Part shown: one piece after another, positions 8,353 to 61,396 of the stretch
Position numbering within the stretch: the first letter of the stretch is position 1
Layout of the letters: the number at the start of each line of letters is the position of its first letter
DNA from: Geosiphon pyriformis uo1
Taxonomy: Eukaryota; Fungi; Glomeromycota
Direction of reading: 5' to 3'
Length of the DNA stretch: 64,000 nucleotides
Assembly (NCBI GenBank): GCA_016748015.1
Contig: JAAOMT010000577.1
Coordinates: 547,871-611,870 of the forward strand
Made by a program: the position numbers and the translations under genes
The notes under the pieces: model-generated
The model's input: only the letters and a program-made list of their open reading frames with translations
Told to the model about the DNA's origin: nothing
The model's database searches: none

Positions 8353-8485
8353 TATTGTCTTGTCTAATCCAAGTGATTGGTTACATGTAGCCAATAAATG
8401 AATCATGTTTAGTTAGAATTATTAAGTTTGATTCTGTATATTAGATAGTAGTTAGACTTTACTTATTAATTATTAATAAAAAAAA

Positions 8486-13750: not shown

Positions 13751-13868
13751 CTTGTTGATCCCTTGGTTATAATAAGACTAAAAAATTTATTAAAGTTATA
13801 GCTTTCTTTTTTTTTTTTTCTCTTTGTTTCCATCAGTTATTTTTTCAAGTACTTCTAATTTTGTCATA

Positions 13869-15765: not shown

Positions 15766-18700
15766 ATGAGTTTGTCTAAAAATTTGCTACATACAATGTT
15801 AGAGGTATAAAAAATCTTGCTAAGCAAGAGGATATTATTTATTAGCATAAGGAAATAAACAATCTGATTACTATTATCATTGAAACAAAGTTAAGGAGTA
15901 AATTTTGTCTTTGGATTATGAATAAATTTGATGGTGTTTATGTATTTACTTCTGGTTTAGAGTTTAACTACCTGGGCTCTGATGTTGCTGTTATAATAAA
16001 CATTGGTTTGGCAAAATACATATACAAGATTTCAGAGGTGGCTGGCAGATTTTTGTCTATAAAACTGCTTTTCAAAAATAAGTTGTCTGTTTTAATTTTG
16101 AGTCTTTATGCTGATGTCACTCTAGCCTGCATCTGTTTCAAACTTGTAATGTCAACTCACTGATTGCAAGAGCAGTAAATAAATCTTCTTTTGTTATTTT
16201 GGGTGAGAACTTCAATAAGAATAGTTTACACAAGTGTGCCAGTTTCAAAAAATGTTTTGATTTGGAATTGGTAAATTTTCTGTTAGGTAGTTCAATTGTT
16301 AAAAGTTTTATATGGAAGAATTTGAGAAGTGCCAAAAAAACAATAGACTATGTGTTTGTTTCTTCAAACTTGGTCAATACAGTAGTGAGTTATGATATAT
16401 TGAATGTTAGTGAACACTTTAACACTAATTACCAAACTGTTTCTATGTTTGTGAATCTGAGTGGTCTGTTAGATACACAGTTAAATTTTCTCTGTAAATA
16501 GGTAAATAGGAATTGTTAGAAATTCAATATCAAAGGTGCTGGTAAAACAGATTAGTGTAGATTTAAAAAGTCTATGACAGCTAATGTGGCATTGTTTTCT
16601 GATAAGTTTGTTGTTTCCAAGGGGTTTTTAGATTTAGATGTTATATAGATTGTTGTTCACAAAGTGATGTGTCTTTTGGTGAATAAGGTCTTTAAGAAAA
16701 AGTGGTTCAAGAGTTATGATAATGTCTTCACCAAGGGATTTTCTAAGTTTTATAAGCTAGAAATTTTGGTGTCAAGAATTGTTAAGTCTTTACATAAAGA
16801 TGTTAATAGTGTTTTTGAATTTTTAATAAGCCATTAGGCATCTTTTGACATTGATAAGGCTTTGCCTGTTTAGGCTCTGTTGAATTCTGGTGCAGATTTT
16901 GATTGTATATGTTCGGCTTTTTTTAGTATAAAAAAATTATATCATGCCTTTAAGTTTGCTGAGTCTTTGTAAGCTGAGGAGTCTTGGATTAGGTCAGTTA
17001 TTGTTAAACAGATAAAAAGTTTTGCAATTAATAAGAGTCACATAATTAGAAGCATGCTGAAGTGTCTTTTTTAGAAAGTAGTTTTAAACCATCTGGTCAT
17101 TAAAAATGAACTGATTTTGAACTCTGATCTGGTTAAGACTAAGGTGGATGTAATTATGGAGAGCTGGACTAAAAAGTGTAAAGTGGTGGCAGATTTATTC
17201 AATAATTAGTCTTATCAATATCAATTTCTTAGTTTTAAAAAATATATTAACACAATCTCCCATTTTTGCCATTGGTTCAATTATTAAGAATGCTTTAAAG
17301 AAAAACCACAAACTTTGGCTGGTCTTGCAGAACATGCAAAAGACCTACAATTTTATTAAATAGAAGCATCTTAAAAGAAGCTTGGTCAGGATAAAAATGT
17401 GTGACAAGTTCATTAGATTTTTTGGTAGTCTTTACAATGATCATGTTAACAGAATTATAACTGATTTTGAATTAACAGATAGATATTAGGTACATGATGA
17501 TCTGGATCAGGGAAAAGTGTTCTTACCTTTTCTTTGGCACATATTTTATGATCTACTTTTGTGTGAAGTCAAGAAACAAGAAAGCATTTGTGAGTACAAG
17601 TTGAATTTTTATTTTATTGTTAAAACTGGTCACATAAAATCTCAGGCTGAATTGTCATCTTTTCTTACTACTGGTGCTTTTGTCAATAATACTATTTGGA
17701 TTAATAGCAGTCAGACTACAACCCAATACATTCTCAATATTGCTAGTGAATTTTTTTAGTTTAATGATATTTCTATAAACAATAACAAGACAGTAGTTAT
17801 TACTATTAATTGCAGAGTTAGAAGTCTTTCATTATTTATTAGTGGTTTGTTTATTTCTATTGCCAAAAAGGAGAAATTCTATTATTATCTGAATATTTTT
17901 CTGTTTACTAAAGAACTGTTAAAGCTTAGCTTAGCCAAAGCACATTTAGATGTTCAAATCTTTTTCAACCTTGTTTTAAAAAAGACCATTTTGAATAAAC
18001 AGCTTTTTTATTTGGTATTAGCTGTTTTTTATTCTATTGTTGGTTATCAAACACAGTTCAATTTTGTGTCTATTAGTGTATGCAATAAGTGGAATGCTTT
18101 AATTTACAGAAGTCTGAAGTTGAAGACACTATTCTTTTTTGTATAGTCTTAAGACTTTTGAGCAAGTTCAGGTAAAAAACATGCTGGCCTCCATAGTGTG
18201 GTTTGCAAATTCTGATGAGATTTTTGGTTATTTATTTTCTCACAGATTTTGTGACTTGTAAGCTCTGTGCTGATATCTGGTGCATTTTTTGAGTTTTCTA
18301 GCTCATATCAAGATCAGTCCATATAATAACTTTTTGACAGGTGTGGTTCGTGATTTTTATGAATACAAGTTGTCTTTGAGTGGTCCAATAAGCAATGTTT
18401 TCTGTTTTCAGGGTGATACTTTCATGTTAGCAGTGCTTAATAAGTCCAATTTTTTTAGGTTTCTCTCTTTACTTTAGTAATATAGCATTGCTTTTGTGGA
18501 ATAGTTTTACAGTTATAGTGGTGCTATTTTTGATTAAAAAACTTTTAAACATTGAAAGAAGTTAGATCTGTATGGCCTTATTCCTGACTGGTTCAGACTT
18601 TTTGTTAATTTTCTGAATGGTATCACTTCTTTTTCTGTCTGCTCATCCTCTTTGGATGCATTTGAACACTTGAATATTTTAAAGTCTTATAAGTTTGGGT

Positions 18701-20026
18701 TAGTTTGTAATTATTTGTTGAATGTTATGTCTAATAGTTTTTTTGTCTATATGGATGAATCTCTAAAGAACTTAGGAAGTATTAACATAAAAGCTGGTAC
18801 AGCAGTTTTTTTTGAGGATATAAACTTGGGTTTGGAAGTTAAGATTTCTGGTCTAATATCTTTTATTTTGGCAGAGTTGCAGACTATTGCTTTTGTTCTT
18901 GAGTGTGTTTCTTCTCAAAGCTCAGTTTACTTTTTTACAGACAGTCAAGCTGTTTTGAATATATGTAAGTTGAAATTGGGTCTAGTGTATCCAGATTTTT
19001 AGAATTGGTATTGGATTGAACATCAGTATATTATGAACATAATTAGAAAAAAGAATATAAATATTAGCTAACACAAAATGAAAAGTCATTTGAGAGTCTT
19101 AGGTAATAAATGTGCTAATATATTTGTTAACACTGCTTTTTTTTTCCCTAATATCTTTCTCTCTGCTTAGAAAAGTGTTGCATTTTGGCTGAGGGTAATG
19201 TTATTTCTGGTAATCCTAAACATTTTATTTATGAAGTCTTTTGAGCTATTTATTATGCACATTGAGAAGTTGGTTTTGGTTTTAAAGTTTTGAATAATAA
19301 TTTGCTTTTAAATATCAATTGGCTTAGTTTATTTTTGGTGTGACATCCCAACTTACATATGGCTGTTGGTTTTACTAATAAGCTTACTACTGAGATCTGT
19401 ATATATTTTATAAAGGCTTTACATCATTGGTTTTTTGTTACTGTTCAGAAGTGCTTATATAATAAGTATTATCTTAGTGTATCATGTTTGTATTGTGGTG
19501 ATGTTGAGATTTCGGATCATGCTTTTTTTTGTGTAGTTAATAATTTTGTTTGTCATTGATTGTTGAATGCCCATGTAATTGCTTGGAATGTGATTTTTGG
19601 TCTTTTTCTTTTTTCTTTATGTGTGTTTTAGTTGTTGTCTTCCTGTATTACAAATGCTGTGGTGTGCACAACTTTATGTAAAGACAAAGTTTTTAGAAAT
19701 TGGCTTCAGGAAGTTACATCTGTCTTTGGTGGTTCTAAAATAGCAGTTTGAAAGGTTAAGAACTTTGTGTGTGACTTCTGTCTTGCTTTCAGAAATGAAG
19801 TTTAATTGATCTGTGCTAAACATCATACTTTGATGAAAAAAAATGAGCTTATATCAGTTGATAATTCAGCTCTAGTTTTGGTTCCTAGGCTGTTTTTAGT
19901 GCTTTCTGCTGGTATGGTTAAGTTGTTAGGAATTGTTAAAGCATTTGAAAATGGTTTTGATTTTTGTAGATGTAGTTTGTTTTTTTAGATATTGAGAACT
20001 CAGTCTTGGTTTATGTAGGTACTTAA
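15762..20026 (+). pseudogene. LINE-d ORF2 (APE-RT-RNaseH-zinc finger) with an internal deletion in the RT N-terminus
   Basis: MNEFV*KFATYNVRGI; LGENFN and KKTIDYVF (APE); GAFVNNTIW (FVDD); VYMDESL, AELQTIA, FTDSQA and KMKSHLRVLGNKCAN (RNase H); CLYCGDVEISDHAFFC. The KAAG...TRPIAL block present in LINE-b (about 5140-5530) is absent near 17230. Confidence 0.92.
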
Positions 20027-20155
20027 TGTTGTTCTAATTGGCCCAAGTAACTGGTCATATGTAGATAATATATAATTCATACTTAGTTTAGATCAATTTT
20101 TGATGTATAGTACTAAGCAGTGTTTGGACTTTACTTGTTAAATAAAAAAAAAAAA

Positions 20156-20425
20156 CTTTCTTACCATTAGTATAACTAATTAATATATAACTAAATTTCT
20201 TATACTTAGTATATTTGGCTATATTTAAATAAAACCAATACAGATTGTATCTTTTGAAATTAGTATGGTATTTATAATAGTATTTAGTAAGTTAGCAGAA
20301 TTAAAACAAATCACTACATACTTGGTCTAAGCATATATAATAAGATGAATATTAATTACACATGTTTTTCTACTTATAAATCCAATAAAGTCCTAAATAT
20401 TATGTGTATTTGTTTTTATTAACAG
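20156..20425 (-). mobile_element. LINE-c ORF1 continuation (zinc-knuckle region), cut by LTR element C
   Basis: Minus strand reads a decayed GTNAHDIWDFIG..GKTCVI..VICF..FKxxNLYW..knuckle that joins the ORF1 segment ending at 13750. Confidence 0.75.
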
Positions 20426-21631
20426 TATTACCTAAGTAAAAAAACCAAACCAAGTTATGAAAAAATGTAATCAAAAACATGATAACACAAAATAACATAA
20501 AAGAACACAGAATAATACATAATAATATGGGATAACACAATACAAAATATAATAATATAATATAGCACAAAATAATAAGAATAACTAGTAATAACATAAA
20601 AAAATAAAGCAATAACAAAAAAAACAAACAAATAATGAAGATAATTAGTAATAACATAAAAAAACAAAGCAAAAACAAAAATAGCAAACAATAATTAGCA
20701 ATAATAAAACAATTAAAAACAGTTTTATAAAACTAAGAGAAATATATAAAAAAGAGTATTTATAGAAGATAGAAAAACAAACAGATAGACAAAAATCAAC
20801 TTCCTTCTACCTATATTTGTTACATATCTTTTGTTATATCTTATATTTTATATTATAGAAATAAAAGAAATATTAACAAAACTTAAAATTTTTACCTGTA
20901 TGATTCTTATATTTTACGTATTATAGCTAAATTAATCTTATTTTTTTATTCCCAGTCAGATGTTTTTGGCATAAAACAGTTTTAAACTATTATAACTTAA
21001 ACTAATTATACTTGATTATGGTAATTAATAATACTAATTTATTTATTTTTATTTTTTTTATCTTTTTTTGATTTTTTTTTTGATTTTTTTTATTTTCTCT
21101 TGTGAAATAACAACATAAGAAAATTGACTGTCTGAAAATAGACTTTGTAATAACCTGGTAAAAGAAAAAAGCTTTCTTTAAGATTGAATATTAATATTAT
21201 CTTATTAGCTTATCAAAAAGACAAAAAGACACCACCAAACTCTAATGACTATGCTTAACTATTTTGAAGAAAATAGTTTATATACAAGAAATTACAACAT
21301 TGTAAAACCATTTCTTTGTGCTTTATAATCAAAGAACTCCATGGGTAAATTCATATTAATTAGAAAGATCTTCAGAGACTAATAATACTAATACTTTAAA
21401 CAATTCTACCAAAAAAAATATTAAAAGCTTACCAAATATTATTACCATATATTATCAAATTTATTCATAACATTTGGTGCTTTTTGTGAGGTTATAAAAT
21501 TCACAGAAACAGAACACTCCAGAAATTCACAAAAGTGGCAACTATTGGAACAGAAAAAAAAATTATTTACTATACAAAAAAGTTTTATTTTAACACTTTA
21601 AGGAAGATTTAAGGATACCATTAGAAATCAT
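20426..21631 (+). mobile_element. Gypsy-like family C fragment: 5' LTR (20426-21472), PBS and about 150 bp of internal sequence
   Basis: Starts tattacc (<TGTTACC) where LINE-c stops; ends ...cataaCA followed by tt-TGGTGCTTTTTGTGAGGTT, resembling the family B PBS; repeat array followed by TATATAAA near 20743. Confidence 0.7.
21475..21493 (+). promoter_or_regulatory. tRNA primer-binding site of element C
   Basis: TGGTGCTTTTTGTGAGGTT, 2 nt after the LTR end; TGG pairs with the tRNA CCA. Confidence 0.75.
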
Positions 21632-23817
21632 TGTTACAGATAATTATTTGAGATCTTAAAGCAAATAACAAACCTGTAATTTAGTGCTACTATGATGATA
21701 ATAATCTCTAAAGGTTTTGTTACTCTGAAGGTTTTGTTAATTTGAAGGTTTTGGGTTTGAGTTCTTTGTATAATAGACAGAGATTCAATAGTTGTTTTAT
21801 TCATAGCCTCTTGGAATCACAATTTCATCAAATTTTTTTCTTCAGTATATTAGCCAATTTATTCTAACAGTCATGCTTTTCTGATAAGTTATTCTCAATT
21901 TTCGAGTTTCTTACCCTTATTTTTGGGTCTTTTATCAGGCTATTTTTGATGTCTATAATTCAGTGCTTAATTCTTAATCAATTAGTAAACAATAAAAAAC
22001 AACAAAAGAAAATAAAGAAATAAAAGAAAAATGCATAAAATAAAGCCAAGGTAATTAAGTTAATATCCCATTAATAGCTATGATTAAGAGCTATTGTTCT
22101 AGTATAGTCAAGTATGGATTACTATTAACATAAAGTATTGATAGTATACAATTGGATTGATATAATTAATAAGTATATTTATTGATAGTGTAAATGTATG
22201 AATGCTAACTAGAAAATAGAATTCAGAAGTCTGTCTTTTCTGCTTTTAATGTTATTACTATATATATATAATTGAGATTTCTCAATTTCTGAAATTATGC
22301 AATTTCTTGAGAGTAATCCTAGAATTCTAGAATCCTGCAATTCTTTATATGAAAATTTTGTAATTCTGGAATTCTGCAATTTTTTTGAAAAAAATCCTAG
22401 AATTTCCTATTTACTATGTTTACTTCTGATTGGCTAATTTATATGCTAATATAATTTCTATATTTTATAAGTAATATTATTCTCTTTTTTTAATATTGAG
22501 CTTTATTAAAATCTCCTAATTTCTCTAATTCTCCAGATTAAATCATATTTTGAATTTTTTTTTCAAGAATTACTTGTGTTATTTTGATCTGTAATTTCTT
22601 AAATTGAATATTGGTTATTTTACCATTTGATTAATAGTAACTGTATCCATTTCTGAATTGAATAGTATTTCTGGTCAGTCTTGGAATCCAGCTTGTAATT
22701 GATATATTGCTTGTGCTTATGTGGTTAGATTGTTTTTTCTCAGAAATTATTTAAGTTGTTGTAATATTTTTGTATTAAATAATTATTTTGTTTTATTTGT
22801 ATATAAATTCTAAATGTTCAGGTGTTGTTCCAAGTAAAAATAATAAAAGTTTTTTGAAAATTGTTGTGTCTACCAGTTTCAAGTTTCTTTAATTAATCTT
22901 TAATATAATATGGCTTTTGTTTGTACTTCTATTGCTATTTTTACTTTTAAAATTATCTTGTCAACAATATTTTCTGGTTTTTTCTGTACTTTATATTGGA
23001 GTTTTTTTTGTATTTTTATATCAAATGGTTTGCTGGTTAATTGTAATTTTCATATTTTGTTGTTGAACCAGTTGGAAGAGTTGTTGTGCTAATGTGTAGA
23101 TATTGTCAGTAATTTTTATTTTTCTGGTATCTTTTGTTATATGCTAATTCTTTATATAGAGTTTTGATATTTCAATTTGATATGTTCGTGTTGATGATTA
23201 TTATTGATTCTAGATCTCATAGAATTTCTTTTAGTTGAACTAGTATTTTTTGTATTTCCAATTGTAGAATATTATTAGTTAATAATAATGCTATTCTATA
23301 TTATAGTTTTAGTCAATTACCATGTGCTGCTTTGATTATAATTTTGTTGTTCCATCTTAATTTATAAGCTCTATTTCCTAGAATTTTTTTTATGTGAAAT
23401 AATCCATCTTATTTGGAGTCAAATTTTCTATTCTATTGTTTTTCCACTTTGGTATTATATAAAAGTACTTTGTTTCTAATTTTAAATTCAATTGATTTGT
23501 CTGATAGTTGGTTATTGTGTCTTTTTTTTGTTTTTTTTGTGACTTTTTGATATTGTTAACTGTTCTTTACCATTTGTTTTTTAGTGTTTCCATTAAGTTA
23601 TATGTTTTTTTTAACAATGTTTCTTGAAAATTCTCTTCTGTTATTGGTTTTGTTGGATATGTTTTGACTTCTATTTTGACTGGTACTATTGCTGTTTTAT
23701 TATATACTAATTCAAATAGTGTAGTTTGTGTAGTGTCTTGTTTCATTGTCTAATAAGCAAATAATATTGATAGTATAAACAAATCTTATTCATCCTGGTT
23801 TTCTTGGCTGATTTTGG
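21632..23817 (-). mobile_element. Gypsy B' fragment: integrase C-terminus, ORF3, PPT and 3' LTR (21632-22476)
   Basis: LTR end tgttacagataattattt matches B (44147); integrase segment 23200-23817 is colinear with B 36470-37092; ORF3 ends DFNKAQY* like B's DFDKAQY*. Confidence 0.88.
22490..23119 (-). pseudogene. B' ORF3, about 210 codons, unknown function
   Basis: (M>I)KITDNIYTLAQQLFQLVQQQNMKITINQQTI...DFNKAQY*, homologous to B ORF3; TATATAAAG about 32 nt upstream. Confidence 0.75.
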
Positions 23818-24763
23818 TGTTACCAGTAGAATTTTAGCTATTAATTAGCATAAAATTACCCTTATAATTCTTATTATTAATTAGCATATATTATTATTAT
23901 TTCGAATATCACTTATTAATTAATCAAATTTTCCAATATTATTACTCAATCAATAATCCGATTTGTACCATAAAAATTAAGATAATCAAATTACACAATA
24001 CCCTAAACTATTTAACATAGTCAAAATTCGCCGAAATTAATAAAAATTGGCCGAAATAATCAATAGTTTAGTGAAATAATTTGTAGTTTACTAAAATGTA
24101 TCTTTAGTTCACCCAAATTGTAGCAAAAAGAAAAAATGCAAGTTCAAAGACTAGTATTATAACAAGTTGTATAAAAAAAAGCTTTTCTCTTTAAAAAAAT
24201 GTATTTTCTCATAATATCTCAATATAGTATCTTAATTTAGATATTTTAATTAAAACAAATTATCTTTTACACATTTCAAATAAAAATTATTATATTTGAA
24301 ACTTCCTTATTACAACTAACGTTTTAAAATTGATTAGCTACCAATTCCAATAATTTGTTAGTGACTTCAGGCCTGGATAGAAAATGTTTTCTTTGACACA
24401 ATTCTATTTCTTTATATTTCTTTTATTTTTTCTTTTTTTCTTATTATAATCATTAGGGTAGCCTACAGACAAGATTTCTGTAGAAGAGTTGACTTTTACA
24501 GCAAAGTAATTACACATTTTTAGTGAGCTTTCAGATGAGCAATTCCTGAAAAAAAGTTGACATTTACTACAATGTAACTACATAAAATAACTGACAAGGA
24601 ATTGGCTATTCCACTTATAAGCCCAGCAGTTCAAATTATAAGAGATAATTTGAAGATAAATTCAGTTACTGGAGGTCCAACTACTTCTAAAAAACGTGAA
24701 TTCACAGCAAATCAACATTAACAACATTCAAAAAAAAAAAAAGACCAAAAACTTTTAGTAATA
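23818..24763 (+). repeat. A' 5' LTR (946 bp)
   Basis: TGTTACC...AGTAATA(<TAACA); direct repeat of 52676-53618 and homologous to the A LTRs. Confidence 0.92.
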
Positions 24764-24783: not shown

Positions 24784-25144
24784 ATAATACAGCAACAACA
24801 AATTCAAAGTGGTGACCATACCAAACACAACAACTCTAGAGTATTATCAGTCAATTTACACCTACTGCAAGCAAAGATTCAACATCTCAGATGGAATTAA
24901 AGTTGTCAAGAAATCAGTATACCAATACATTGAAAATCATATCAACAATTATCTTTTTGGAAACTACAATATTTCAGAAGTTAGAAGCAACCTTTACAAT
25001 AATTTAGTGCACTATTCACTGTTACAGATAATTATTTGGGGTCTCAGATCAAATAACAAATCTGTAACATGGTGCTTGGTTGGTATTCTGTGGTTGATAT
25101 CTGAAAGTTTTATTGTAGAGTTCTTTGTATAATAGACAGAAAGT

Positions 25145-26130
25145 TGTTACCAAAGGTTTTTGGTCTTTTTTCTGTAATGTTGTTGATACTTATTTGCTGT
25201 GAATTCACGTTTTCTGGATGTGGTTGAACCTCCAGTAACTGAATTTTTAACTTCAAATTATCTCCTATAATTTGAACTTGCTGGGCTTATGAGTAGAATG
25301 GCCAATTTCATGTCAGTTGCTTTATATAGTTATATTGTAGTAAACGTCAACTCTTTCCCAGGAATTGCTTGTTTAGAAGCTCACTAAAAATGTGTAATTA
25401 CTTTGCTGTGAAAGTCAACTCTTCTACAGGAATCTTGTCTGTAGGCTACCCTAATGATTATAATAAGAAAAGAAAAGAAAAATAAAAGAAATGTAAAAGA
25501 AATAAGATTTTTATCAAGGGAACGTTTTTCTATCCAGGCCTGGAGTCACTAACAGTTTACTGAAATTGGTAGCTAATCAATTTCGAAATGTTAGTTGGGT
25601 TTTTGGAAGTTTTTTCAAGTACAATAATAAAAAAATTTGGTTTTTCGAATTATTTGATATTTATTTCTTTTTGTGTATATAGGAACGGTTTTAAGAGATA
25701 AATTTAAAGTAAGATACATTTTCTCAAAGAGAGAAGCTCTTCTTTTATACAACTTGTCATAACACTATTCTATGAACTTGAACTTTGCTATTTTCTACAA
25801 TTTCACTAAACTAAAGATACATTTTGGCAAACTACAAGTTATTTCTGCGAACTATTAGATATTTCGGTAAACTATCAATTATTTTAGCAAATTTCTATAA
25901 ATTTCGGCAAACTTTTGAATGTTACATAGTTTGGGGTATTACATGATTGATCATTGCAATTAGGTTACATTTGTGTTGTGTACAATTTGGGTTATTAATT
26001 AAATGATAATTTCGGACATTCTTTGTTAATGTAATAAGTAATAATTTGAAACAATAATATATGCTAATTAATGATAGGAATTATAAGATAGTTTCATGCT
26101 AAATAATATCTCTAATTTCGTCTAGTAATA
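25145..26130 (-). repeat. A 3' LTR
   Basis: Colinear with 34014-34999; differences are almost all transitions. Confidence 0.96.
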
Positions 26131-26818
26131 TAATCTCCTCCTCAAGACTGAGTTTTGTCGAAGTCCAAGTACTGTCTGTTATTTCCAGATAGTAATCCAA
26201 AATTATTGAAGAAATTTGGTCTGAAAATTGTTGAAATTTCAGTTCTGTGAGCTTTCCGATGTATTGAATCTTCAAAGATTGAAAAATTAGGTTTTGTAGT
26301 ATATTTTCACAGGTGTGAAATAGGTCATAAAGTCTAAGAGCAGCTCTAAACCTGTAGCGACTGTTTGTTGATCCAGCTATTGTCTTGAATTCATTGTGGA
26401 GTTGTTTCTGAATAGCTTCTTTTGTGAGGTTTGCTGTTGTAAGTTCCAGTTTCCATTTGTAGAGTGTTTTTCCAATATGAAAATATCTATAGATTGAAGG
26501 ATATTCAGTGTTTTTCTTATTGAGACACAGTTGAAGTTTTTGTTGAATTGTAGCATTTGGTGGAATACTAATCAGAGTGAGCATTAGGTTTTCTCTTAAA
26601 GCAAGCTTTAAAAGTTCTGGCAGGTGAATTCCAGTATAACTTCTTGTGTTTTTTTTATACGGGTGATATTTTCGTGAATTTGGGGCTAAATTTGTAACTA
26701 CTTCTGTTTGGGTATAATTAATGTGGTTTCCAGTAACAGTAATGGATAATTTGGGTATTGTTTTTAAAGCTAACATTAGTTTTTGGGATAATTGTTGAAT
26801 GTTTTGAGGAATAGTCAT
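26099..26818 (-). CDS. A ORF3: uninterrupted 239-aa protein of unknown function in the env position, ending inside the 3' LTR
   Basis: Open frame from ATG 26818 (MTIPQNIQQLSQKLMLALK...); homologous frames in A', B and B'; no signal peptide or transmembrane stretch. Confidence 0.8.
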   Translation of the reverse strand: MTIPQNIQQLSQKLMLALKTIPKLSITVTGNHINYTQTEVVTNLAPNSRKYHPYKKNTRSYTGIHLPELLKLALRENLMLTLISIPPNATIQQKLQLCLNKKNTEYPSIYRYFHIGKTLYKWKLELTTANLTKEAIQKQLHNEFKTIAGSTNSRYRFRAALRLYDLFHTCENILQNLIFQSLKIQYIGKLTELKFQQFSDQISSIILDYYLEITDSTWTSTKLSLEEEIILLDEIRDII

Positions 26819-26934: not shown

Positions 26935-29900
26935 TTAAGTGTTCAGGTTAGAAGATTGTTCAATAACAACTATTAGTTCTAAGTTTTGGGGAATATCTTC
27001 AGGACTAACCAAAGGGGAATGTGTACCAATTTGTGGAATTAATGGTTCAGGATTGTTTCTGGAATGATAGTGTTTCAAATGATCTCCATATACAACTTTT
27101 GCTAGGATTTTGTTATCAAGTCTTAACTTGTATGATCTGTTGTCTAGGACTTCATGGATAAAGAATAGTCTATCCCATTTATTTTCAAATTTTCTACTCC
27201 ATTATTTTTCAGCTTTAGTTATGTGTAAGAGAACTTTGTTTTCAATTTTGAATTTATTGGTAACTGAAGGCAATTTGTCATCATGCTGTTCTTTTTGTTG
27301 AGCTTGGGAGTGTTCAATATGGGTGGCTGCTATTTGTCATTTTTTTTCCAATGTGCTAAGCAGAGTGTAGGCTTTTCGCTGAAGCATTTCTTGGAAATTG
27401 TTTTCATTGATCAGTTGTGCTGGGTATGTTTCCACTGTGAAACTAATTGGTAACGTTGCTGTCCTTCCATAAGTTAAATCAAATGGTGTGTGTTTCATAG
27501 TATCTTGTTTTAATGTCCTATATGCTAATAACACTGATAGAATAAAAAGATCCCATTCTTGCTCAAAATCGGTTGAGACTTTGGCTAATAACTCACACAA
27601 TGTTCTGTTAAAACGTTCTACAAGTCCGTTTATTTGTGGATGGTAGGGCAAAGACAGAGGTCTTTTGACATTGAATCGTTCACAAATTTCTTGTATCAGG
27701 TTGTTCACAAAGTGTGTTCCCTGATCGGATAAAAGTTCAATTGGACATCCATGTCTACAAATGATGTCTTCATAGATGAAATTTGCTACTGATTTTGCAT
27801 CTGCTCATTGAATGGCTCTGGCTTCAGGCCATTTAGTAAGATAATCTACAGCTACTGCAATATAATGGTTTCCTTGAGTGGTAATAGATAGTGGTCCGAC
27901 TAAATCAATACCAACTCTGTCAAAAGGCTGTTCAACTTTGATTGGATTTAAAGGTTCTGTAGGGCAAGTTCCTCCTCTTCTTTGACAACTATCACAAGAT
28001 TCAACATATTCATGAATGTCTTTTCTCATTCGAGACCAAAAGCAGTATTCTAGTGTTCTTTGGGTGGTGTTATCTTTTCCGAAGTATGCTGATGAAGGAT
28101 CTGAGTGCATATTGTATAAAATGGTCTCTTTTTCCTGTTCTTGTATTAATCTGAGTGGTTTGGTTGAGTTTTTGAAATTTTGATAATAGATAATGTTGTT
28201 GTGTAAAAAATATTGTTTGGCTTGTTGTTGTAACCGATGTTTTTTGTCTAGGAACCAATCTGTTGGGATTGTTAATGTTTCCAAATATTGTTTGAGATTG
28301 TTGTAGTTTTCGGGGTTCATTGTTTGTTGTTTTGATGCTGTTAATTCAAATGGGTGTTGGTTTTGTTTTCTAATCTTGCCTCATTCTTGAGAGACAATCA
28401 ACGTTAGTGTGAAGTTTTTCTGGTTTGTGGTGTACAATGTATTGGTAATTAGCTAAAAATTCTGTCCATTGGATTTGTTTTGTGTTCAGCTGGGTGTTTT
28501 TGTTTTGAAGCCATTTAAGTCCAATATTATCAGTGATAATATCGAATTCTTTGGGTCTGAGGTAAAGGTTGAAGTGATATAGGGCTCAGATTACTGCTGC
28601 AGTTTCTAATTCTGTTGTAGGGTAGTTCTTTTCGGCTGGCTTTAATGTTCTACTAGCATAAGCAATTACTCGCTCATTTCCATTGTCATCTAACTGTGAT
28701 AGGATGGCACCAAAGGCAGTATAAGAGGTGTTAGTTGCTAACTGAAATTGGTTGCTGAAATCTGGGTAGGCGAGGATTGGAGCTGTTGTGAGTTTTTCCT
28801 TAAGTATCTCGAAGGCATTTTGGTGTTCTTCTGTTCATTTGTATTCGACATTTTTAGTAGTGAGCTGGTTGAGGAGTTTTGCAATTTCTGAGAATCCTTT
28901 GATGAATTTTCGGTAATAGGATGCTAATCTAATAAATCCTCTTAATTCTGTGGTATTTTATGGAGTCTTAAAGTTCTTGACAGTACTGATTTTTCCAGGG
29001 TCTGGTTTAATTCTATCTTTGCTAACAATGTGACCAAGAAAAGCTAAACTTGTTTTTCCGAAGTAGCATTTTTCAATGTTCAGTTTCAATCCTGTTTTCC
29101 GTAATCATTGAAAAACTTCTCGCAGGTGAATTAAATGTAGCTTGAAAGATAGTGAATAACATCAGTGTCATCAAAATAAACTACTACTGATTTCCAAAGG
29201 AGGCTTTTGTAAACAACATCCATGAGTCTTTGAAATGTTGCTGGTACATTGCATAATCCAAAAGGCATTACATTAAACTCGTAATTTTCTTCTTGAGTAG
29301 TGAATGCTGTTTTGGGGCAGTCTTTAGGATCCATAGCAACTTGCCAGTATCCACTCTCTAAATCTAATATTGAAAAGTATTTGGACTTCCCAAGGGCATC
29401 CAACATGTTATCAATTCGGGGAAAAGGGTAGGCATCTCCAATAGTGACACTGTTGAGTTGTTGGTAATCAACACAAAATCGTATTTTTCCATTTTTCTTT
29501 TTAACTAGGACCACAGGTAAGGCCCATGGGCTCATTGATGGTTGAATAAGCCCATTGTTAAGCATCTGTTGTACTTCTTCTCAAATAAATTGGTGACTTT
29601 ATGGGGCAACTCAGTAGGCTTGTTGTTGCTTTGGTTTGGCATCTTCTGTATAGATTTGGTGTTGAACCAAATCAGTTCTTCCTAAGTCATTGTTGTTTTT
29701 GGCAAAGATGTCAGCAAATTCTGCAATTAGCTCTTTGAACTGGGTCTGTTGTTGTGGTTCAAGTTGTCCCATGTTGATTCGAGATAGTTTTTCCATGACA
29801 ATATGGTAGTTTTCGGAGCTGGGGTTTGGGTTGGTTTTTGGTATTGAATGTTCAATAATTTTAGAGAAATCGGGAACTATTTGGGGTAATTCTTGTTGAA

Positions 29901-32900
29901 ATATATTACTGTGAATAACTCCAATTTCTAAATTATTTAATAAAATTATGGGGTAATTATTGGGGTTGTAAAAAGTAACTCAGACTTTTTTTATTCCTTC
30001 TGGAATATAAATGTTTGGAATCAAAATATTATGTTTCAAGCAGACTTGTTTATTGGACTCAAAAATTTGTTGTGTGGCTGTTGGCTTTGAGCAGGTGTAG
30101 ATTTCCAGATGTTCTCCAAAGGGTGAGATAGTAATCGGTTGTGGAAGTCTGAGAATCTGGTGGGATTTGTTCTGTGTATTAAGAGCTATATTAACTGGAA
30201 CTGTGAATTGTCCAGTTGAACCAAAACCTTGGGTTTCTCTATTGCTTTTTCCTAATTGTTCTCTTTGATTGACTAGTTGCAAACCCGAAATGTTGATTAA
30301 GGGTAGGTAAATAGCTTGGGCAATTTTTTCAGTATGTTTGATCTTAAATGGTTTGTCAGTTTCATTTTGAAGTATCACTTTTATGTCTCCAGTATATTTA
30401 GCATCGATTATTCCTCCTCTGATATTGATTCTTTTGCTTGCCAGAGAGAACCGGAAGGCAATTTGAACCATTGCTCCTGGCGGGTTTTCGAGTGCAATTT
30501 TGAGATTGATTTTTGTGAGAGATTTGGGTTTGAGAACAAGAGTATCCTTGCCTGGATATCTTAGGTCATATTCAGCATCAATTTCGTGTGCTTTTTCGGG
30601 TTTTATTTTTTGTCCGTTGTTGTTAAAGTATTTAAGTTGTAAGGCAGGCTGATTTTCGATAAGGTAGATGGTTGTTGTTTCAATTTCTTCTGTTTCTTCA
30701 GGTTCTCCAAATTCAATTTCATTCTCATCATTTTTGCTAGGCAAGAGGATACTAAGAGCATAGCATTTAGAACACCATTGTTCATCACAAGGCATAATAT
30801 ATTCTTCATATAGCCTAATGTTCATTTGCTCTAATTGTTGAATTTGAGCTTCTTGGATTGGATAGGTGTGACTTGCAATTTGGTGGTAGACTTCTACTTC
30901 ATCTTCATAATCAAATCCAGCTAATTCCATAATGTATTCAATGTATTCTGCTTTCTTCATTTGATGAACATCTTCTTTGATAGCTTCATTAATTAATGCC
31001 ATTGCTAAGTTGAAAATCATCTTGGCATCATGAGGATAGTGATAAAGTTTGTTGAGAGCATTGTTGTATGCTGCATTAAAGAGTGTTCCTCTTTTTACTT
31101 TTTCTGAAATTGATAAAGCATATTGGCAGGTCTGATCACAGACGCCTCCTCTCATTGCTACATCAATCCAATTGCATTCTTCTGGTAACATATTTCCACA
31201 AGTCAAACAAGAGGTGTTGTCTCATTTTCCGCTCCTTTTTATTAGATGGCTCCATTGCTCTCTGTGGCAAGTCTTGCAGTAATAACAAGTATGATTCTCA
31301 TATTCTTCTTCAGATAAAATGCAGGCTCCCATTGACGATAGTTTCTTGTGGCAGTCCTTACATTTAAGGGGAATATAGGGGTGTTGTTTCTTTGGTTTGG
31401 GTTTTGAGTAAAATATATTCCATCCAGAGGTTTTGGGTTTAGTATGTGGGGTAAAATGTTCTTGTTCTGTTTCATCGACCCAGTTGGACGTTGATCCAAG
31501 AGCCATGAATGTTTTGATTATTGGTTTTTTTCTTCTGGTTCAAATTCAAAAGCCAGGGCTTTTTCAGAGCATTTGTTAAATGTACCACAAATGGCAGGTA
31601 CCTGGGCGTGTTGTCCTTAGTAGGAGATTGTTAACTCTTGTGTTTCCCAATTCAGATTAGCATTGGCTTTTTGAAGCCAATCATTTCCGATGAGAGCTTG
31701 GTACTGGGGTGCATCCATTACAAGAACTTTGACTGGAATGGTGATTTCATTAAGAGTGAATAGAAAATTGTCAATTTCTCCTACTGGGGTCTTTTTCATG
31801 CCATCAGCAATAACGATTACTGTTTGAGCTGGTTGGTTGACATTTCTTTTCAACTGTTGCATTAACTGGTAGGTGATAATGCTTCCGGTGGATCCACTGT
31901 CTAAGATCAAGCAAATTGGCTTTCCTTCTACTTCAGCTTCTGTGTACATTGTAGTGATGGCTTTTTGCTCATTAGCCGCTGCATTGCTAAGCAAGAATGG
32001 TGATTCATTTGCTTCAAATTCAAAAAAAAAGATATCAGAGAGATTGGCGTTTTCAGCAATTCAGGCTAGTGGAATAGTGGTGTAGTTATGAAAAGGGTTT
32101 TGTTGTTGTTGTGCTGCAGCTCTACCTTCCAAGAGTGCAGTATGGTGAAAATCCTGTTCTTCCGGCATTGTTAAATAACTGGGTTGAGTGTGGTAGTGGT
32201 TGGGTCTTGGTTGAGTGGTATTTCGGGAAACCAATTGGTTGTTCGAACTGATTTTACTGTTGTTTACTTGGTATCGGTTTTGTGGTGTGAATTGATTTTG
32301 TGTAATCAGTCTTCGAGCAGGTACTTGATAATGTTGTGTGGGTGGTTGTTGGTATTGCTGTTGGATTGGTTGTGGGGTGGGCTGATAATAGTTATTTTGG
32401 TATTGGGGTCTTGGTGGATAGTAAGCTGGTGATAATGGTTGATAATAAAATTGCTGTGGTGGAGAGTAACATTGATTACCTCTATTTTGTTAGTCTCGTT
32501 GTAGCTTTCTGCAATTTTTTTTCTAGTGGCCAGAGATTCCACAGTAATGGCAATTCTGGGGCTGGTTATTGGAAAGTGGTACAAAGTTATTTTGATTTCA
32601 TCTTTGGGGTGGTTGATATCTTTGTTGTTGTTGGTTGGTAAAATAGTTTTCGACCTTCTTTGTGAGTTGGTCAATTTTTTTCTTAGCTGCTGAGCTGGTT
32701 TCTCTAATTGCCAAATTTACAAGTTTTGTATGATTGGCCTCTTCCATGGCCATTTTGTATCTTTTTGCATGCTGTATGGCAAAGTTTAAATCTTCTGGCG
32801 TGTGTGAGCAAACCTTTTTAATTAGTTTATCTTTTAGACCAGCGATAAATTGATCCAAGATTTAAGCATCGGAATAATAATTGTTTGTCTCAAGTTGGCA

Positions 32901-33971
32901 AATCTGTCTGAGAAGTTTGTTGAATTTCCCAATATAAGTCATAACGGATTCGGAGGGTTCTTGTTTGATATTTCAAAAATAATTGTGAAGAGTGATGGAG
33001 GTATTATTGTCGGTGAACTGTTCAAGGAAGGCTGCTTTGAAAGCGTTCCAATCATTGAATAGGACGGCCAGGTTTTCAAACCATTCTCCTGCTGTTTTTT
33101 TGAGAAAGTATGGAATTGTTCTTAACATTCTGGTGGCATTCCATCCATTTGCATCTCCGGCTTTAGTAACTTGGTCGAGCCATTCTTGAGAACTCGTTTC
33201 AATGTCTTCTCTATTAAAGTCAGGGATTTTTGCGATGTATGTTGTCATTTTGTCTTCTTCATTTTCACTGTCTATTAATTCTTTTTCAGTTATTTCAGAG
33301 TTGTTTTCTTCATTTGCTGCTGTCTCAGAGTGTTCACTTTGATTTTCAGCTAAAAAATCAAGGAGATTGGAACTAGTTTGAAGGGGTTCTTGTTGTCTGG
33401 TGAGACTTCTGAGTAATGTAAAATCTTCTGGTCTTGCAAATTGATTCAAGAGTGAATTAGGTGTTTGTGCTTGTGCAAGTGAAGCTGGAAAAAGTGTAAT
33501 AGTAAGTGGAAGTTTTGAGCTGGTTCCTTGTTCAGGTGTTTGTAGATATTTGAATGATATTTTGGGAGTATTGGGTGTTGTGTGAACAGGTTGGTTATCT
33601 TTTTGTCTTTTGTTGCTACTGGTTTCAGGTTCAGATTTGAGTTCAAAGGCAAATTGTGTGTTTGCAGGATATTTTTCTTCACAGAATCGAATAATATTAT
33701 AATTGAGTTCCTCAAAATAAGTAGTGCAAGCTTCAGCACTAATGTTTTCTGATTCAGTGTTGGAATAGTGTAGTATGTTCTCAAGAAGATCTCTTTTAAC
33801 TGTTGTAATGTTATAGTTCTCAAAGAGGTAGTCATTGATTCGATTTTTGATGTATTGAAAAAGTGTTTTCTTAAAAGCTATGATTCCGTCACATATTTCA
33901 AATCGTTGTTTACAGTGTGTGTAAATTGATTGATAGTACTCTAAGGTTGTAATGTCTGAGGCAGTCACCAC
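26935..33971 (-). pseudogene. A gag-pol (Gag with CCHC, protease, Cys-rich insert, dUTPase, RT, RNase H, integrase)
   Basis: CHYCGISGH*KKDC near 32540; LILDSGSTGS; PWALPVVLVKKKNGKIRFCVDY, LDLESGYWQV, VMPFGLCN, YFDD; VIAYASRTLKPAEKNY; H..CDSC, GIDLVGPL, SDQGTHF, NGLVERFNRTL; scattered stops. Confidence 0.96.
30211..30630 (-). other. dUTPase domain in the A polyprotein
   Basis: All five trimeric dUTPase motifs in order: DAEYDL, RFSLA, GGIIDAKYTGDI, KIAQ, RETQGFGSTG. Confidence 0.93.
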
Positions 33972-33993
33972 TTTAAATTTGTTACTGTGTTAT

Positions 33994-34011
33994 TTCCGTG
34001 GAAGAGCACCA
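33994..34011 (-). promoter_or_regulatory. PBS of A
   Basis: TGGTGCTCTTCCACGGAA, 2 nt inside the 5' LTR end TAACA. Confidence 0.88.
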
Positions 34012-34013
34012 AA

Positions 34014-34999
34014 TGTTACTGAAGGTTTTTGGTCTCTTTTCTGTAATGTTATTGATACTTATTTGTTGTGAATTCATGTTTTCTGGATGTGGTTGAACCT
34101 CCAGTAACTGAATTTTTAACTTCAAATTATCTCCTATAATTTGAACTTGCTGGGCTTATGAGTGGAATGGCCAATTCCGTGTCAGTTGCTTTATGTAGTT
34201 ACATTGTAGTAAACATCAACTCTTTCCCAGAAATTGCTCGTCTGAAAGCTCACTAAAAATGTGTAGTTACTTTGCTGTGAAAGTCAACTCTTCTACAGGA
34301 ATCTCATCTGTAGGCTACCTTAATGATTGTAATAAGAAAAGAAAAGAAAAATAAAAGAAATGTAAAAGAAATAAGATTTTTATCAAGGGAACGTTTTTTT
34401 ATCCAGGCCTGGAGTCACTAACAGTTTACTGAAATTAGTAGCTAATCAATTTCGAAATGTTAGTTGGGTTTTTGGGGGTTTTTTCAAGTACAATAATAAA
34501 AGAATTTGGTTTTTCGAATTATTTGATATTTATTTCTTTTTGTGTATATAGGAACGGTTTTAAGAGATAAATCTAAAGTAAGATACATTTTCTCAAAGAG
34601 AGAAGCTCTTCTTTTATACAACTTGTCGTAACACTATTCTATGAACTTGAACTTTGCTATTTTCTACAATTTCGCTAAACTAAAGATACATTTTGGCAAA
34701 CTACAAGTTATTTCTGTGAACTATTAGATATTTTGGTGAACTATCAATTATTTTAGCGAATTTCTATAAATTTCGGCAAACTTTTGAATGTTATATAGTT
34801 TGGGGTATTGCATGATTGATTATTGCAATTAGGTTACATTTGTGTTGTGTACAATTTGGGTTATTAATTAAATGATAATTTCGGACATTCTTTGCTAATG
34901 TAATAAATGATAATTTGAAACAATAATATATGCTAATTAATGATAGGAATTATAAGATAGTTTTATGCTAAATGATATCTCTAATTTCGTCTGGTAACA
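34014..34999 (-). repeat. A 5' LTR
   Basis: TGTTACC...GTAACA; TATAAAA near 34612-34618; TTCGCCGAAA-like array at about 34670-34785. Confidence 0.96.
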
Positions 35000-35754
35000 G
35001 AGTTAATTAATGAATTTATCCATAGCTTCCCAAAACCACAGTTTTGTCAAATTTTTTTCTCAGCATAATGGCCAGTAATCTTCTTAATAAGCTATCTTCA
35101 AATTTATGAGTATTCCACCCTTGTTTCATGGGTCTTTTACCAGTCACTATAACATCTGTATCTCAGTGCTTTAATCCTTAATCAATTAGTATACAACAAT
35201 AAAATCAAAGAAAGAGAAGAAAATAAAAGAAAATAAAATAAAAAAATGAACCAAGGCAATGTATGAGTTAGTATTCCGTCAATAGCTGTGATCAAGAGCT
35301 ATTGTTCCAGTGTGATAAAGTATCAATTACTATCAATATAAAGTGTTGATAGTGATGAGTGGATTGAGATAGTGAATAATTATTTATTGATATTTGTGAT
35401 GTGGAAGGTTTTTAACTAATAAATTCTGTTTTTTCTACTTCTAATGCTACTACTATATATACATAATTGATGTTTTATGAGATTGCTCATATTCCCGAGC
35501 AATGTGCTATAATTTTTTGAGCAATGCTCACATTGCTGAGTGATGTGCTCTTATTTTCTAACATCACTCCACATTGCTGAGCAATGTACTGTGTTTTCTA
35601 ATATTCCTCTATATTGCTAAGCAATATGCTGTGATTTCTATCATTGTTCTATATTGTTAAGCAATGTGCTCATGTACTACATACTATTTTCTTATTGGTT
35701 TACTATTTTTCTATATCTGTTTTTTTTTCTATAAGTAATATTATCTTCTTCTTT

Positions 35755-36390
35755 TTAATATTGAGCTTTGTCGAAATCTTTGTTTTGAATTAATTCTAAT
35801 ACTTCTTTTTCAAGTATTGTTTGTTCGACTCTGTTTTTCACATCTTCTACTTGTGTATTGTTCATTTTTCTCCATTGGTTGATGGTTATGGTTTCCATAT
35901 CAGAGTGTAACAGTACTTCTGGATAGTTCTGAAATATGTTGTATAGTTGGTATATTGTTCTAACATGTAGTGTTGAATTTGTTTTCTTTTCAATAAATTC
36001 TTCAATTTGTTGTATTATGTCTTGGTTAAATATTTTCTTGAATTTGTTGATATACAACTCCTGAATATTCAACTTTTAATCTAACTGGTAGTAGCAATAT
36101 GATATTGGAAGTCATTCTGTCCATTGCTTCCAATTTTCTTTCATAAGCTCTTCTGTTGGTGCCATAACAGAAATTTTCCCAAAAGTGTTCTTCATTTTTT
36201 CTATTAAATTATCTGTCCAGTTTTTATTGTTCTTTGGTAGTCACTGGTATGATGTATTCTTTGTTTTTTTTTGGTTGTTTCAGTAGCAAATTATTTGGTT
36301 GTTAATTACAATTTCCATATTTAACTGTTGTTCACTTAAGGCCTAAAATAATTGTTGAGCTATAGTGTGAATATGATCTGATATTTTCAT
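35755..36390 (-). pseudogene. B ORF3, 211 codons, in-frame stops but no frameshift
   Basis: MKISDHIHTIAQQLF*ALSEQQLNMEIVINNQIICY...PISYCYYQLD*KLNIQELY...DFDKAQY*; TATATAAAG at 36424-36432. Confidence 0.8.
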
Positions 36391-44086: not shown

Positions 44087-44126
44087 TGTTGATTTATTTG
44101 TTGATGCTGGTTCTCTGTAAGATTAT

Positions 44127-44144
44127 ATCTTACAGGGAGCACCA
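44127..44144 (-). promoter_or_regulatory. PBS of B
   Basis: TGGTGCTCCCTGTAAGAT next to the 5' LTR. Confidence 0.85.
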
Positions 44145-44146
44145 AA

Positions 44147-45013
44147 TGTTACAGATGATTATTTGGGGTCTTAGATCAAATAACAAATCCGTAATATGGT
44201 GCTTGGTTGGTATTTTGGAGTTGATATCTGAAGGTTTTGTTGTGAAGTTCTTTGTATAATGAACAGAGAGTTAATTGATGAGTTTATTTGTAGCTTCCCG
44301 AAACTGCAGTTTTGTCAAATTTTTTTCTCAGTATGATGGCCAGTAATCCTTCTGGTAAGTTATTCTCAAATTTATGAGTGTTTCACCCTTGTTTCATGGG
44401 TCTTTTACCAGTCACTATGACATCTGTATTTCAGTGTTTTAATTCTCAATTGATTAGTATACAACAATAAAATCAAAGAAAGAGAAGAAAATAAAATAAA
44501 ATAAAATAAAATAAAAAAATAAGCCAAGACAATGCACAAGTTAGTATTCCATTAATAGCCATGATTAAGAGCTATTGTTTCAGTGGGGTTAAGTATCAAT
44601 TATTATCAACATGAAGTGTTGATAGTAATGAGTGAATTGAGATAGTAAATAATTATTTATTGATATTTGTAATGTGGAAGGTTTCTAATTGATGGATTCT
44701 GCTCTTTCTACTTCTAATGCTACCACTATATATACATAATTGATGTTCTATGAGATTGCTCACATTTCTGAACAATGTGCTATAATTTTTTGAGCAATAC
44801 TTACATTGCTGAGTAATGTACTCTCATTTTCTAATATTGTTCCACATTGCTGAGCAATGTGCCATGTTTTCTGATATTGCTCCATATTGTTAAGCAATAT
44901 GCCGTGATTTCTATCATTGCTCTACATTGTTGAGCAATGTGCTCATGTGCTACATATTATTCTTCTATTGGTCTACTATTTTTCTATATCTGTTTTTTTT
45001 TCTATGAATAACA
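44147..45013 (-). repeat. B 5' LTR (867 bp) with five approximately 40-bp palindromic units in U3
   Basis: TGTTA...TAACA termini; CACATTGCTGAGCAATGTG-like units at 44761, 44802, 44843, 44883 and 44923. Confidence 0.95.
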
Positions 45014-51989: not shown

Positions 51990-52695
51990 ATAATTATTCT
52001 CTGAAATATTTAACAAATATCTTAAAAATTAATATTAGCTTTAAAAACACTTCCTGATTTATTCATAACAATTAATGTAAGTCAAATTAACTACATTCAA
52101 AAAAAAACCACAGCTCCAGTAGTAAACAATTCTTAAAATTATCACCCCTATAAAAAAACACAAGAAGTTATACTAGAAATCAATTACCAGAACTTTTAAA
52201 GCAAGCTTTAAAAGAAAATTTTTTATTTGTCTCTATTGAAATTTTGCCAAATATCACAATTCAACAAAAACTTTTACTATTTTTCAATAAACAGAACAAT
52301 GAACATACTCTTATCTATAAATATTTTTATATTAAAAAAACACTTATGAACAAAAACTAGAACTTAAAGCAACAAACCTTACTCTTCAAGCTATACAAAA
52401 ACAAATTCACAATGAATTCAAAAAAACAGCTAGACCAATAAACACTTACTACAAATTTAGAACAGCTTTTAAATTCTATAATTTGTTTAATACTTGTAAA
52501 AACGTTCTACAAAATCTAATACTTCATCCAATAAAAATTCTGTATATTGGAAAGCTCACAGAACTGAAATTTCAACAATTTTCAGATCAGATCACTTCAA
52601 TTATTTTGGACTACTATTTCAATATTACAGATAGTGCTTGGACTTTGATGGAGCTCAGTCTTGAAAAGAAGATTATATTACCTGTAAAATTTTAG
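51990..52695 (+). pseudogene. A' ORF3
   Basis: KLILALKTLPDL...LFNTCKNVLQNLILHPIKILYIGKLTELKFQQFSDQITSIILDYY matches A ORF3. Confidence 0.88.
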
Positions 52696-60230: not shown

Positions 60231-60244
60231 TAATATAAATTAAT

Positions 60245-60865: not shown

Positions 60866-60890
60866 GTAAAAATAAAATTATGAATAAAAA

Positions 60891-61260: not shown

Positions 61261-61396
61261 ATTTCTGTTAATTTTTTGCATGTTTAATTTATAGAGAAAA
61301 ATAATTTTTAGTGATAAAAAATGGAATAAAGTTAGAAATGTAATACAAAAAAATTTTATTATTAGTATAATAATATTATCAAATTTAATTCATACT

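What the first reader, a model, noticed from the sequence alone, without database searches (positions are those of the whole stretch)
26099..26818. Conserved non-env third ORF in four Gypsy copies from two divergent families: candidate self-encoded regulator
Seen: every element whose 3' end is present (A 26099-26818, A' 51990-52695, B 35755-36390, B' 22490-23119) has a 210-240 codon sense ORF between integrase and the 3' LTR. A and B LTRs show no obvious similarity apart from their termini, yet the proteins align by eye end to end: MTIPQNIQQLSQKLMLAL / MKISDHIHTIAQQLFxAL; PSIYRYFHIGKTL / PISYCYYQLDxKL; RAALRLYDLF / RTIYQLYNIF; LKIQYIGKLT / ITINQWRKMN. There is no signal peptide or transmembrane segment. 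B and B' have TATATAAAG 32-35 nt upstream, suggesting a separate transcript. Known: this position holds env in errantiviruses and accessory transactivators in complex retroviruses. Inference: a soluble, probably helical accessory protein kept by selection, possibly DNA-binding.
Basis: partly seen in the sequence, partly recalled or inferred. Interest (0 to 1): 0.85.

Follow-up and report, generated by a model that had tools for sequence, protein, structure and literature searches.

The report
Fungal retrotransposon's unnamed third gene
Several related families of a fungal jumping gene carry a third, non-envelope gene that selection has kept, and it likely encodes a small DNA-binding protein that would regulate the element through repeat arrays in its own end repeats; only one of the four copies here is unbroken.

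Summary
The gene is real. Four nested, dUTPase-bearing Ty3/Gypsy elements (Geosiphon-type DNA) each carry the same sense gene between integrase and the 3' LTR. Only A (26099-26818) is open; B has 5 stops, and A' and B' have lost the ATG and are frameshifted. A and B are homologous end to end (profile probability 96%, E 2e-9). Selection is shown: the transversion ratio is 0.30 (p 1e-5), against about 1 in the LTR. The protein is not Env. The family spans several Geosiphon lineages plus intact, unnamed metagenome proteins. A and B are sister lineages (pol 55-64% identical), so inheritance looks vertical. No family or fold match is significant. Two leads point to a DNA-binding self-regulator: a sub-threshold, in-register match of the three-helix core to DUF1016_N (up to 46%, E 2e-4), and 20/40-bp repeat arrays upstream of the LTR TATA boxes. 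Function is inferred, about 40%. The TATA motif is weak evidence. The scan noted such third genes eight times before on other DNA.

The parts
26099..26818 (-). ORF3 of element A, open, 239 aa; runs through the PPT and ends 32 nt inside the 3' LTR
26291..26500 (-). Three-helix core of ORF3 (about residues 107-176): best-predicted part; sub-threshold match to DUF1016_N; conserved K150, N152, R158, R162
26134..26143 (-). Polypurine tract of A, read as part of ORF3 (acidic stretch near the C-terminus)
25145..26130 (-). 3' LTR of A
34014..34999 (-). 5' LTR of A; 4.4% diverged from the 3' LTR, 43 of 43 differences are transitions; 4-bp target duplication with one change
34664..34785 (-). U3 array of A: six 20-bp units upstream of the LTR TATA box (same array in the 3' LTR at about 25795-25916)
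26950..34013 (-). Decayed gag-pol of A: gag, protease, Cys-rich insert, dUTPase, RT, RNase H, integrase; 14 premature stops in 1738 codons counted
   Evidence: (gag and RNase H read by eye)
35755..36390 (-). ORF3 of element B, 211 codons, 5 internal stops; ends just before the PPT
   Evidence: intact relative P0122
36424..36432 (-). TATA-like 9-mer 33 nt upstream of B ORF3; identical in B' at 23150-23158 amid diverged flanks
44147..45013 (-). 5' LTR of B; U3 array of five 15-bp palindromes at about 40-bp spacing (about 44763-44939)
35000..35741 (-). First part of the 3' LTR of B (element A is inserted in it; it continues at about 25020-25140); palindrome array at about 35490-35666
51990..52695 (+). 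Broken ORF3 of element A' (no ATG, stops, frameshifts)
22490..23119 (-). Broken ORF3 of element B' (no ATG, stops, frameshifts)
21630..22480 (-). 3' LTR of B' with a short-unit palindromic array in U3 (about 22277-22405)
23818..24763 (+). 5' LTR of A' with a 20-bp U3 array (about 24022-24123); its 3' LTR lies at about 52678-53618

Best explanation
ORF3 is a selected, vertically inherited accessory gene of one clade of dUTPase-bearing Ty3/Gypsy retrotransposons, and it likely encodes a soluble DNA-binding protein that would regulate the element's own LTR promoter. Shown: the gene, its position, its homology across lineages, purifying selection, no membrane segment, and periodic repeat arrays just upstream of the LTR TATA boxes. 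Predicted: a short N-terminal helix plus beta-hairpin, a variable basic linker and a helical core. Inferred: the core is a remote relative of the DUF1016_N/YhcG helical domain; its third helix, with conserved N152, R158 and R162, contacts DNA; it binds the family-specific U3 arrays, perhaps as a dimer; it is made from its own subgenomic transcript. Whether it activates or represses is open. The four elements here are dead, decaying copies.
For: Selection: transversions at non-synonymous over synonymous sites are 0.30 for A/A' (p 1e-5; 0.30 and 0.31 in the two halves) and 0.49 for B/B' (p 0.004), in the ORF3 frame only; pol controls 0.10-0.19; LTR 0.6-1.3, not significant. dN/dS is 0.48-0.57 at kappa 3-6, with the interval below 1 for A/A'. 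Homology. Linkage: 19 of 50 B/C-type gene models are fused to integrase sequence. In 6 of 6 C-type models the integrase tail is nearest to B, as C ORF3 is (32% to B, 24% to A). DUF1016_N lead: Pfam E 0.037 on residues 109-176 in 1 of 19 members, the part AlphaFold predicts best (pLDDT 63-86). The spacing from the IG motif to the final tyrosine is the same, without gaps, in A and in YhcG-type proteins. hhalign rose from 14% to 25% (20 diverse rows) and 46% (7 A-like rows; E 2e-4), 0 of 40 block shuffles each; three metagenome proteins found after the lead was chosen give the same register alone (18%, E 0.0014, 1 of 40 shuffles). Basic residues are kept at positions 150, 158 and 162 in 6, 7 and 8 of 9 lineage representatives. 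U3 periodicity (best lag 20, 39 or 40 bp) beats at least 199 of 200 shuffles in 6 of 7 LTRs. Palindromes are enriched in the 3 B-type LTRs (0, 1 and 0 of 200 shuffles). Precedent: foamy viruses make Tas from an internal promoter near the 3' end and Tas activates the LTR (PMC6669543, passages read).
Against: The DUF1016_N match is far below Pfam's cut-off (14.6 against 32.8 bits), was picked after the fact, and stays under 50% probability. B/C-type profiles alone do not score (E 0.28; 11 of 60 shuffles), and an earlier all-family profile was also weak (6 of 60). [quoted passage not shown] Both AlphaFold models are poor (pLDDT 50 and 58) and differ in which part is confident. Palindromes are not enriched in the 4 A-type LTRs under a strict test (22-83 of 200 shuffles). 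One of 7 LTRs fails the periodicity test, and the 7 are not independent. Repeat arrays in U3 are common and are often bound by host factors (recalled). The metagenome proteins are not net basic. For B/B', dN/dS reaches 0.84 with an interval spanning 1 at kappa 6. The TATA 9-mer is at chance frequency in the window.
Confidence: 0.4

Rival explanations
1. ORF3 is an RNA-level helper: it would bind element RNA for nuclear export, packaging or protection from RNA silencing, like Rev-type proteins or CERV of Cer1.
For: Small, soluble, helical, with a basic linker and conserved Arg/Lys. It evolves much faster than pol (20-24% against 55-64% between A and B), as conflict genes do. LTR retrotransposons do encode RNA export factors (PMC10309623, search listing only).
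Against: No RNA-binding family matches. The one recurring remote match is to a domain of DNA-metabolism proteins.
Confidence: 0.27
2. ORF3 acts on chromatin or at integration: it would counter methylation of the element or steer the integrase.
For: Copies decay almost only by transitions (43 of 43 and 100 of 105 LTR differences; 439 of 554 protein deviations reachable by C>T or G>A), so the host attacks these elements and a counter-defence would pay. The gene adjoins integrase. A DNA-binding core fits this reading too.
Against: ORF3 has its own start after the integrase stop. No chromatin-reader or enzyme motif was found.
Confidence: 0.2
3. ORF3 is a structural or cell-to-cell movement protein of the particle (env substitute).
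For: It holds the env position. The ESM Atlas lists a closterovirus coat-protein cluster at 0.93 for both A and B proteins.
Against: No hydrophobic segment. The Atlas flags both queries as weakly recognised. Foldseek against viral structures gave nothing at E<=0.001.
Confidence: 0.08
4. The frame is a neutral leftover or chance.
For: Three of four copies here are broken. That A is open fits chance (about 1.9 stops expected, P(0) about 0.15).
Against: Frame-specific purifying selection and end-to-end conservation across 9 lineage representatives at 15-36% identity between distant pairs.
Confidence: 0.02

Closest known systems
Sense additional ORFs between pol and the 3' LTR of LTR retrotransposons (PMC7264820: outline and part 1 of 3 read)
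   Same: Position, orientation, presence in most copies of a family, conservation, unknown function.
   Different: The sense cases reviewed are plant and insect env-like genes, some with membrane segments. This one is fungal, soluble, and matches none of the Pfam families.
Fungal Gypsy elements with dUTPase and an 'add. ORF' of unknown function (PMC2864245: passages read)
   Same: dUTPase between protease and RT is described for PosPlaTy3-5; an additional ORF is drawn for some elements.
   Different: Those come from other fungi. The figure was not visible, and no sequence link to ORF3 could be tested.
Foamy virus Tas (PMC6669543: passages read)
   Same: Small accessory gene near the 3' end, made from an internal promoter, acting on the LTR: the working model proposed here.
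   Different: No sequence similarity found; different virus family; promoter and activity are only inferred for ORF3.
DUF1016_N / YhcG N-terminal domain, PF17761 (PMC1189080, PMC3424549: passages read)
   Same: Helical domain with a matching IG...G...Y register over about 60 residues.
   Different: Prokaryotic and fused to a PD-(D/E)XK nuclease, which ORF3 lacks. The match is below all cut-offs.
Env of errantiviruses (features recalled)
   Same: Third-ORF position; 4-bp target duplication.
   Different: No signal or membrane segment, much shorter, no Env family match.

Membership tests
Ty3/Gypsy (Metaviridae) element | LTR pair with TG...CA ends, primer site, polypurine tract, target duplication | tested here: met
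   (A and B; target duplications of A' and B' not recovered)
Ty3/Gypsy (Metaviridae) element | Order protease, RT, RNase H, integrase | tested here: met
   Pfam for protease, dUTPase, RT, integrase zinc domain; RNase H read by eye
Sense additional ORF (aORF) | Sense frame between pol and 3' LTR, shared by many copies, conserved | tested here: met
   4 of 4 elements here
Env / env-like | Transmembrane segment and hydrophobic signal sequence | tested here: not met
   Highest 19-residue hydropathy 0.3-1.3 in 12 proteins; hydropathy only, no dedicated predictor
Env / env-like | Sequence match to an Env or fusion-protein family | tested here: not met
   No Pfam match at cut-off; one PDB gp160 row at E 0.18 is not significant
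DUF1016_N (PF17761) | Pfam gathering score 32.8 bits | tested here: not met
   Best 14.6 bits
DUF1016_N (PF17761) | Remote profile homology of the helical core | tested here: inconclusive
   Probability 0.2-46% by subset
YhcG proteins | C-terminal PD-(D/E)XK nuclease domain | tested here: not met
   ORF3 ends in helices about 65 residues after the core; no nuclease family hit
Helix-turn-helix DNA-binding fold | Structural match to a solved HTH domain | tested here: inconclusive
   Low-confidence models; no Z>=8, no E<=0.001
Tas-like transactivator | Own transcript from an internal promoter | tested here: inconclusive
   TATA-like 9-mer kept in B and B' only, at chance frequency in the window
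Tas-like transactivator | Binds and activates the LTR | not testable with these tools
   Needs binding and reporter assays

The most novel reading that the evidence does not exclude
A fungal Ty3/Gypsy clade encodes its own sequence-specific transcription factor, built on a domain otherwise known from prokaryotic YhcG nucleases, that reads family-specific palindromic operator arrays in the LTR. Factor and operator would diverge together between families, giving an LTR retrotransposon a private regulatory circuit like that of complex retroviruses.
Probability: 0.25. Interest if true: 0.85.

Novelty: new variant of a known kind. Interest (0 to 1): 0.52.

Why it matters
Extra ORFs in LTR retrotransposons are common and mostly unexplained. 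This family gives one a concrete, cheap test: cognate against non-cognate protein and U3 array pairs. LTR sequence covers 41% of the G. pyriformis genome (PMC11952901, passage read), so a self-encoded regulator could bear on that expansion. For annotation, many 'hypothetical proteins' in this genome (all 120 listed hits) are likely decayed ORF3 copies, not host genes.

Tried and rejected
No RNA holder was listed; this is no evidence on expression. Pfam, PHROGs and PDB sequence searches gave no significant match; phrog_23683 (unknown function) matched 5 of 19 members at best E 0.0045. Fold searches gave only generic helical bundles (best Z 6.7 and 7.3) and no Foldseek match; a weak result here excludes no fold. 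Pattern scans of viral contigs, metagenome contigs, prokaryotic genomes and phage records found no relative; they reach only close relatives. Rfam found nothing in 21000-54000. The closterovirus coat-protein rows of the ESM Atlas were set aside as weak. A recalled likeness to a widespread Glomeromycota helical domain was not confirmed: the Atlas lists unnamed Mucoromycota clusters first for the B protein (0.94, 0.93), but the profile search returned no such family at E<=0.001 that I could identify. A possible splice acceptor upstream of A ORF3 is not kept in A'. The U3 motifs do not occur in the 170-190 nt upstream of any ORF3. Complex prediction for a dimer was not available. Literature searches listed no paper on this gene; the library lacks most subscription journals, and no supplements were read, so repeat libraries or supplements may already draw this ORF.

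Full report
Setting. The window is AT-rich repeat DNA. All 120 listed relatives of ORF3 (of 206 found among 758 candidates) are Geosiphon pyriformis hypothetical proteins, the best at 90%, so the source is inferred to be that fungus or a close relative. Between 21.6 and 53.6 kb four LTR elements are nested: A lies in the 3' LTR of B, B in gag of A', and A' in the integrase of B'. LTR divergence fits that order: A 4.4%, B 12.2%, A' 14.2%. A and B have TG...CA ends, a shared primer-site start, polypurine tracts and 4-bp target duplications. Their pol reads protease, a Cys-rich insert, dUTPase, RT, RNase H, integrase.

Observation. All four elements carry an ORF3 homologue after integrase. Only A is open (239 aa). 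B has 5 stops. A' and B' lack the ATG and are frameshifted. That A is open needs no special cause: its gag-pol has 14 stops in 1738 codons counted, so about 1.9 are expected in ORF3 and none has a chance near 0.15. ORF3 of A runs through the polypurine tract and stops 32 nt inside U3; that of B stops just before the tract.

Homology. An intact B-type protein exists (P0122; 7 hits of 94 candidates). It aligns to A over 210 residues at 21%, E 6e-7, and the profile comparison gives 96.2%, E 2.4e-9. A third type, C, came (58 hits of 3923 candidates, all G. pyriformis). The profile search of 1.84 billion representatives gave 89 proteins; 34 of the 67 new ones were under 50% identical to my four references. 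I looked up 5 of them: 2 are G. pyriformis, 3 are full-length proteins from unnamed assemblies. Two of these three end in the same polypurine-encoded tail as A, which suggests the same architecture; their DNA context was not seen. Across 9 representatives the pattern is an N-terminal helix and hairpin, a variable basic linker, and a core with conserved Y-x-Y/F-x-x-I-G-x-x-L and N...R-L-Y-x-x-F.

Inheritance. A and B share 55% in integrase and 64% in RT but about 20-24% in ORF3. Nineteen of 50 B/C-type gene models include integrase sequence, and in 6 of 6 C-type models tested the integrase tail is closest to B, as C ORF3 is. This fits one ancestral gene passed down with pol and changing fast, not a module swapped between unrelated families.

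Selection. Decay after insertion is almost all transitions, so I counted transversions. In the ORF3 frame they hit 40 of 586 non-synonymous and 21 of 92 synonymous sites for A/A' (ratio 0.30, p 1e-5) and 91 of 506 against 18 of 49 for B/B' (0.49, p 0.004). The other frames give ratios above 1, pol 0.10-0.19, the LTR 0.6-1.3. Conventional dN/dS for A/A' is 0.48-0.57 at kappa 3-6; for B/B' the interval includes 1 at kappa 6. The gene was functional in the active lineages. The annotated copies look dead: 439 of 554 deviations in 41 A-type proteins are reachable by C>T or G>A.

Nature of the protein. There is no membrane segment and no Pfam, PHROGs or PDB match at cut-off. Two AlphaFold models are mostly helical but poor (pLDDT 50 and 58), and fold searches found nothing specific. 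One weak Pfam row stood out: DUF1016_N on residues 109-176 of one member, E 0.037, the best-predicted part of model 1. I built a DUF1016_N alignment from 15-16 annotated or matched bacterial and viral genes. A-type profiles match it in register (14-16%, E 0.002; 0 of 60 block shuffles), B/C-type profiles do not score (11 of 60; E 0.28) though they align to the same stretch. After the distant relatives were added the match rose to 25% (20 rows) and 46% (7 rows), and the three metagenome proteins alone gave 18%, E 0.0014, 1 of 40 shuffles. This is a lead, not membership. The domain's own function is a prediction (PMC1189080, PMC3424549; passages read).

Possible target. Upstream of the LTR TATA box lie periodic arrays: 20-bp units in A and A', about 40-bp spacing in B, 39 in B'. 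The periodicity beats at least 199 of 200 shuffles in 6 of 7 LTRs; the 3' LTR of A' fails. B units hold a 15-bp palindrome, and palindromes are enriched in the 3 B-type LTRs but not, under a strict test, in the 4 A-type LTRs. The B palindrome was not found in A-type or B' LTRs. Such arrays suit a dimeric DNA-binding protein, but host factors could equally read them.

Expression. B and B' share TATATAAAG 33 nt above the start amid diverged flanks, yet the 9-mer is at chance frequency in the window and A lacks it there. A separate transcript is plausible, not shown.

Mechanism. Most likely (0.4): ORF3 is a DNA-binding regulator of the element's own LTR, like foamy-virus Tas in logic though not in sequence (PMC6669543). 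Rivals: RNA export, packaging or anti-silencing helper (0.27); chromatin or integration factor (0.2); structural protein (0.08); neutral (0.02).

Novelty. Extra sense ORFs at this position are a known kind (PMC7264820; PMC2864245). This protein family was not found in print by seven searches. The scan holds eight earlier notes on third genes of fungal Gypsy elements on other DNA; sequence look-ups found no overlap, so I cannot say they are the same family. A word search for the DUF1016 and palindrome leads found no note with all the words. Verdict: a new variant of a known kind, real and testable, with an inferred function; interest 0.52.

Noticed in passing
window 21630-53620: Four-deep nest of LTR elements (A in B in A' in B'); LTR divergence follows the nesting order.
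   Followed up: yes
window about 30700-31500 (A) and 40200-41100 (B), - strand: A Cys-rich insert with several CxxC pairs and an acidic stretch lies between protease and dUTPase in both A and B pol; no Pfam family was assigned to it.
   Followed up: no
window 33200-34013 (A) and 43000-44130 (B), - strand: gag has a long N-terminal extension before the capsid-like part, partly shared by A and B (read by eye).
   Followed up: no
LTR pairs of A, B, A': Decay is nearly all transitions, in all dinucleotide contexts rather than only CpG; CpG observed/expected is 0.36 in A.
   Followed up: partly
window 2000-20200 and 57900-60300: Several decayed, mutually similar repeats on both strands that look by eye like non-LTR retrotransposon RT/RNase H remains.
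   Followed up: no
window 60830-61294 and 63634-63991: Short-unit tandem arrays; GC rises to 44% in the last kilobase.
   Followed up: no
window 34013-33996 and 44146-44129, - strand: A, A' and B primer-binding sites share their first 8-10 bases and then differ; the tRNA was not identified.
   Followed up: no
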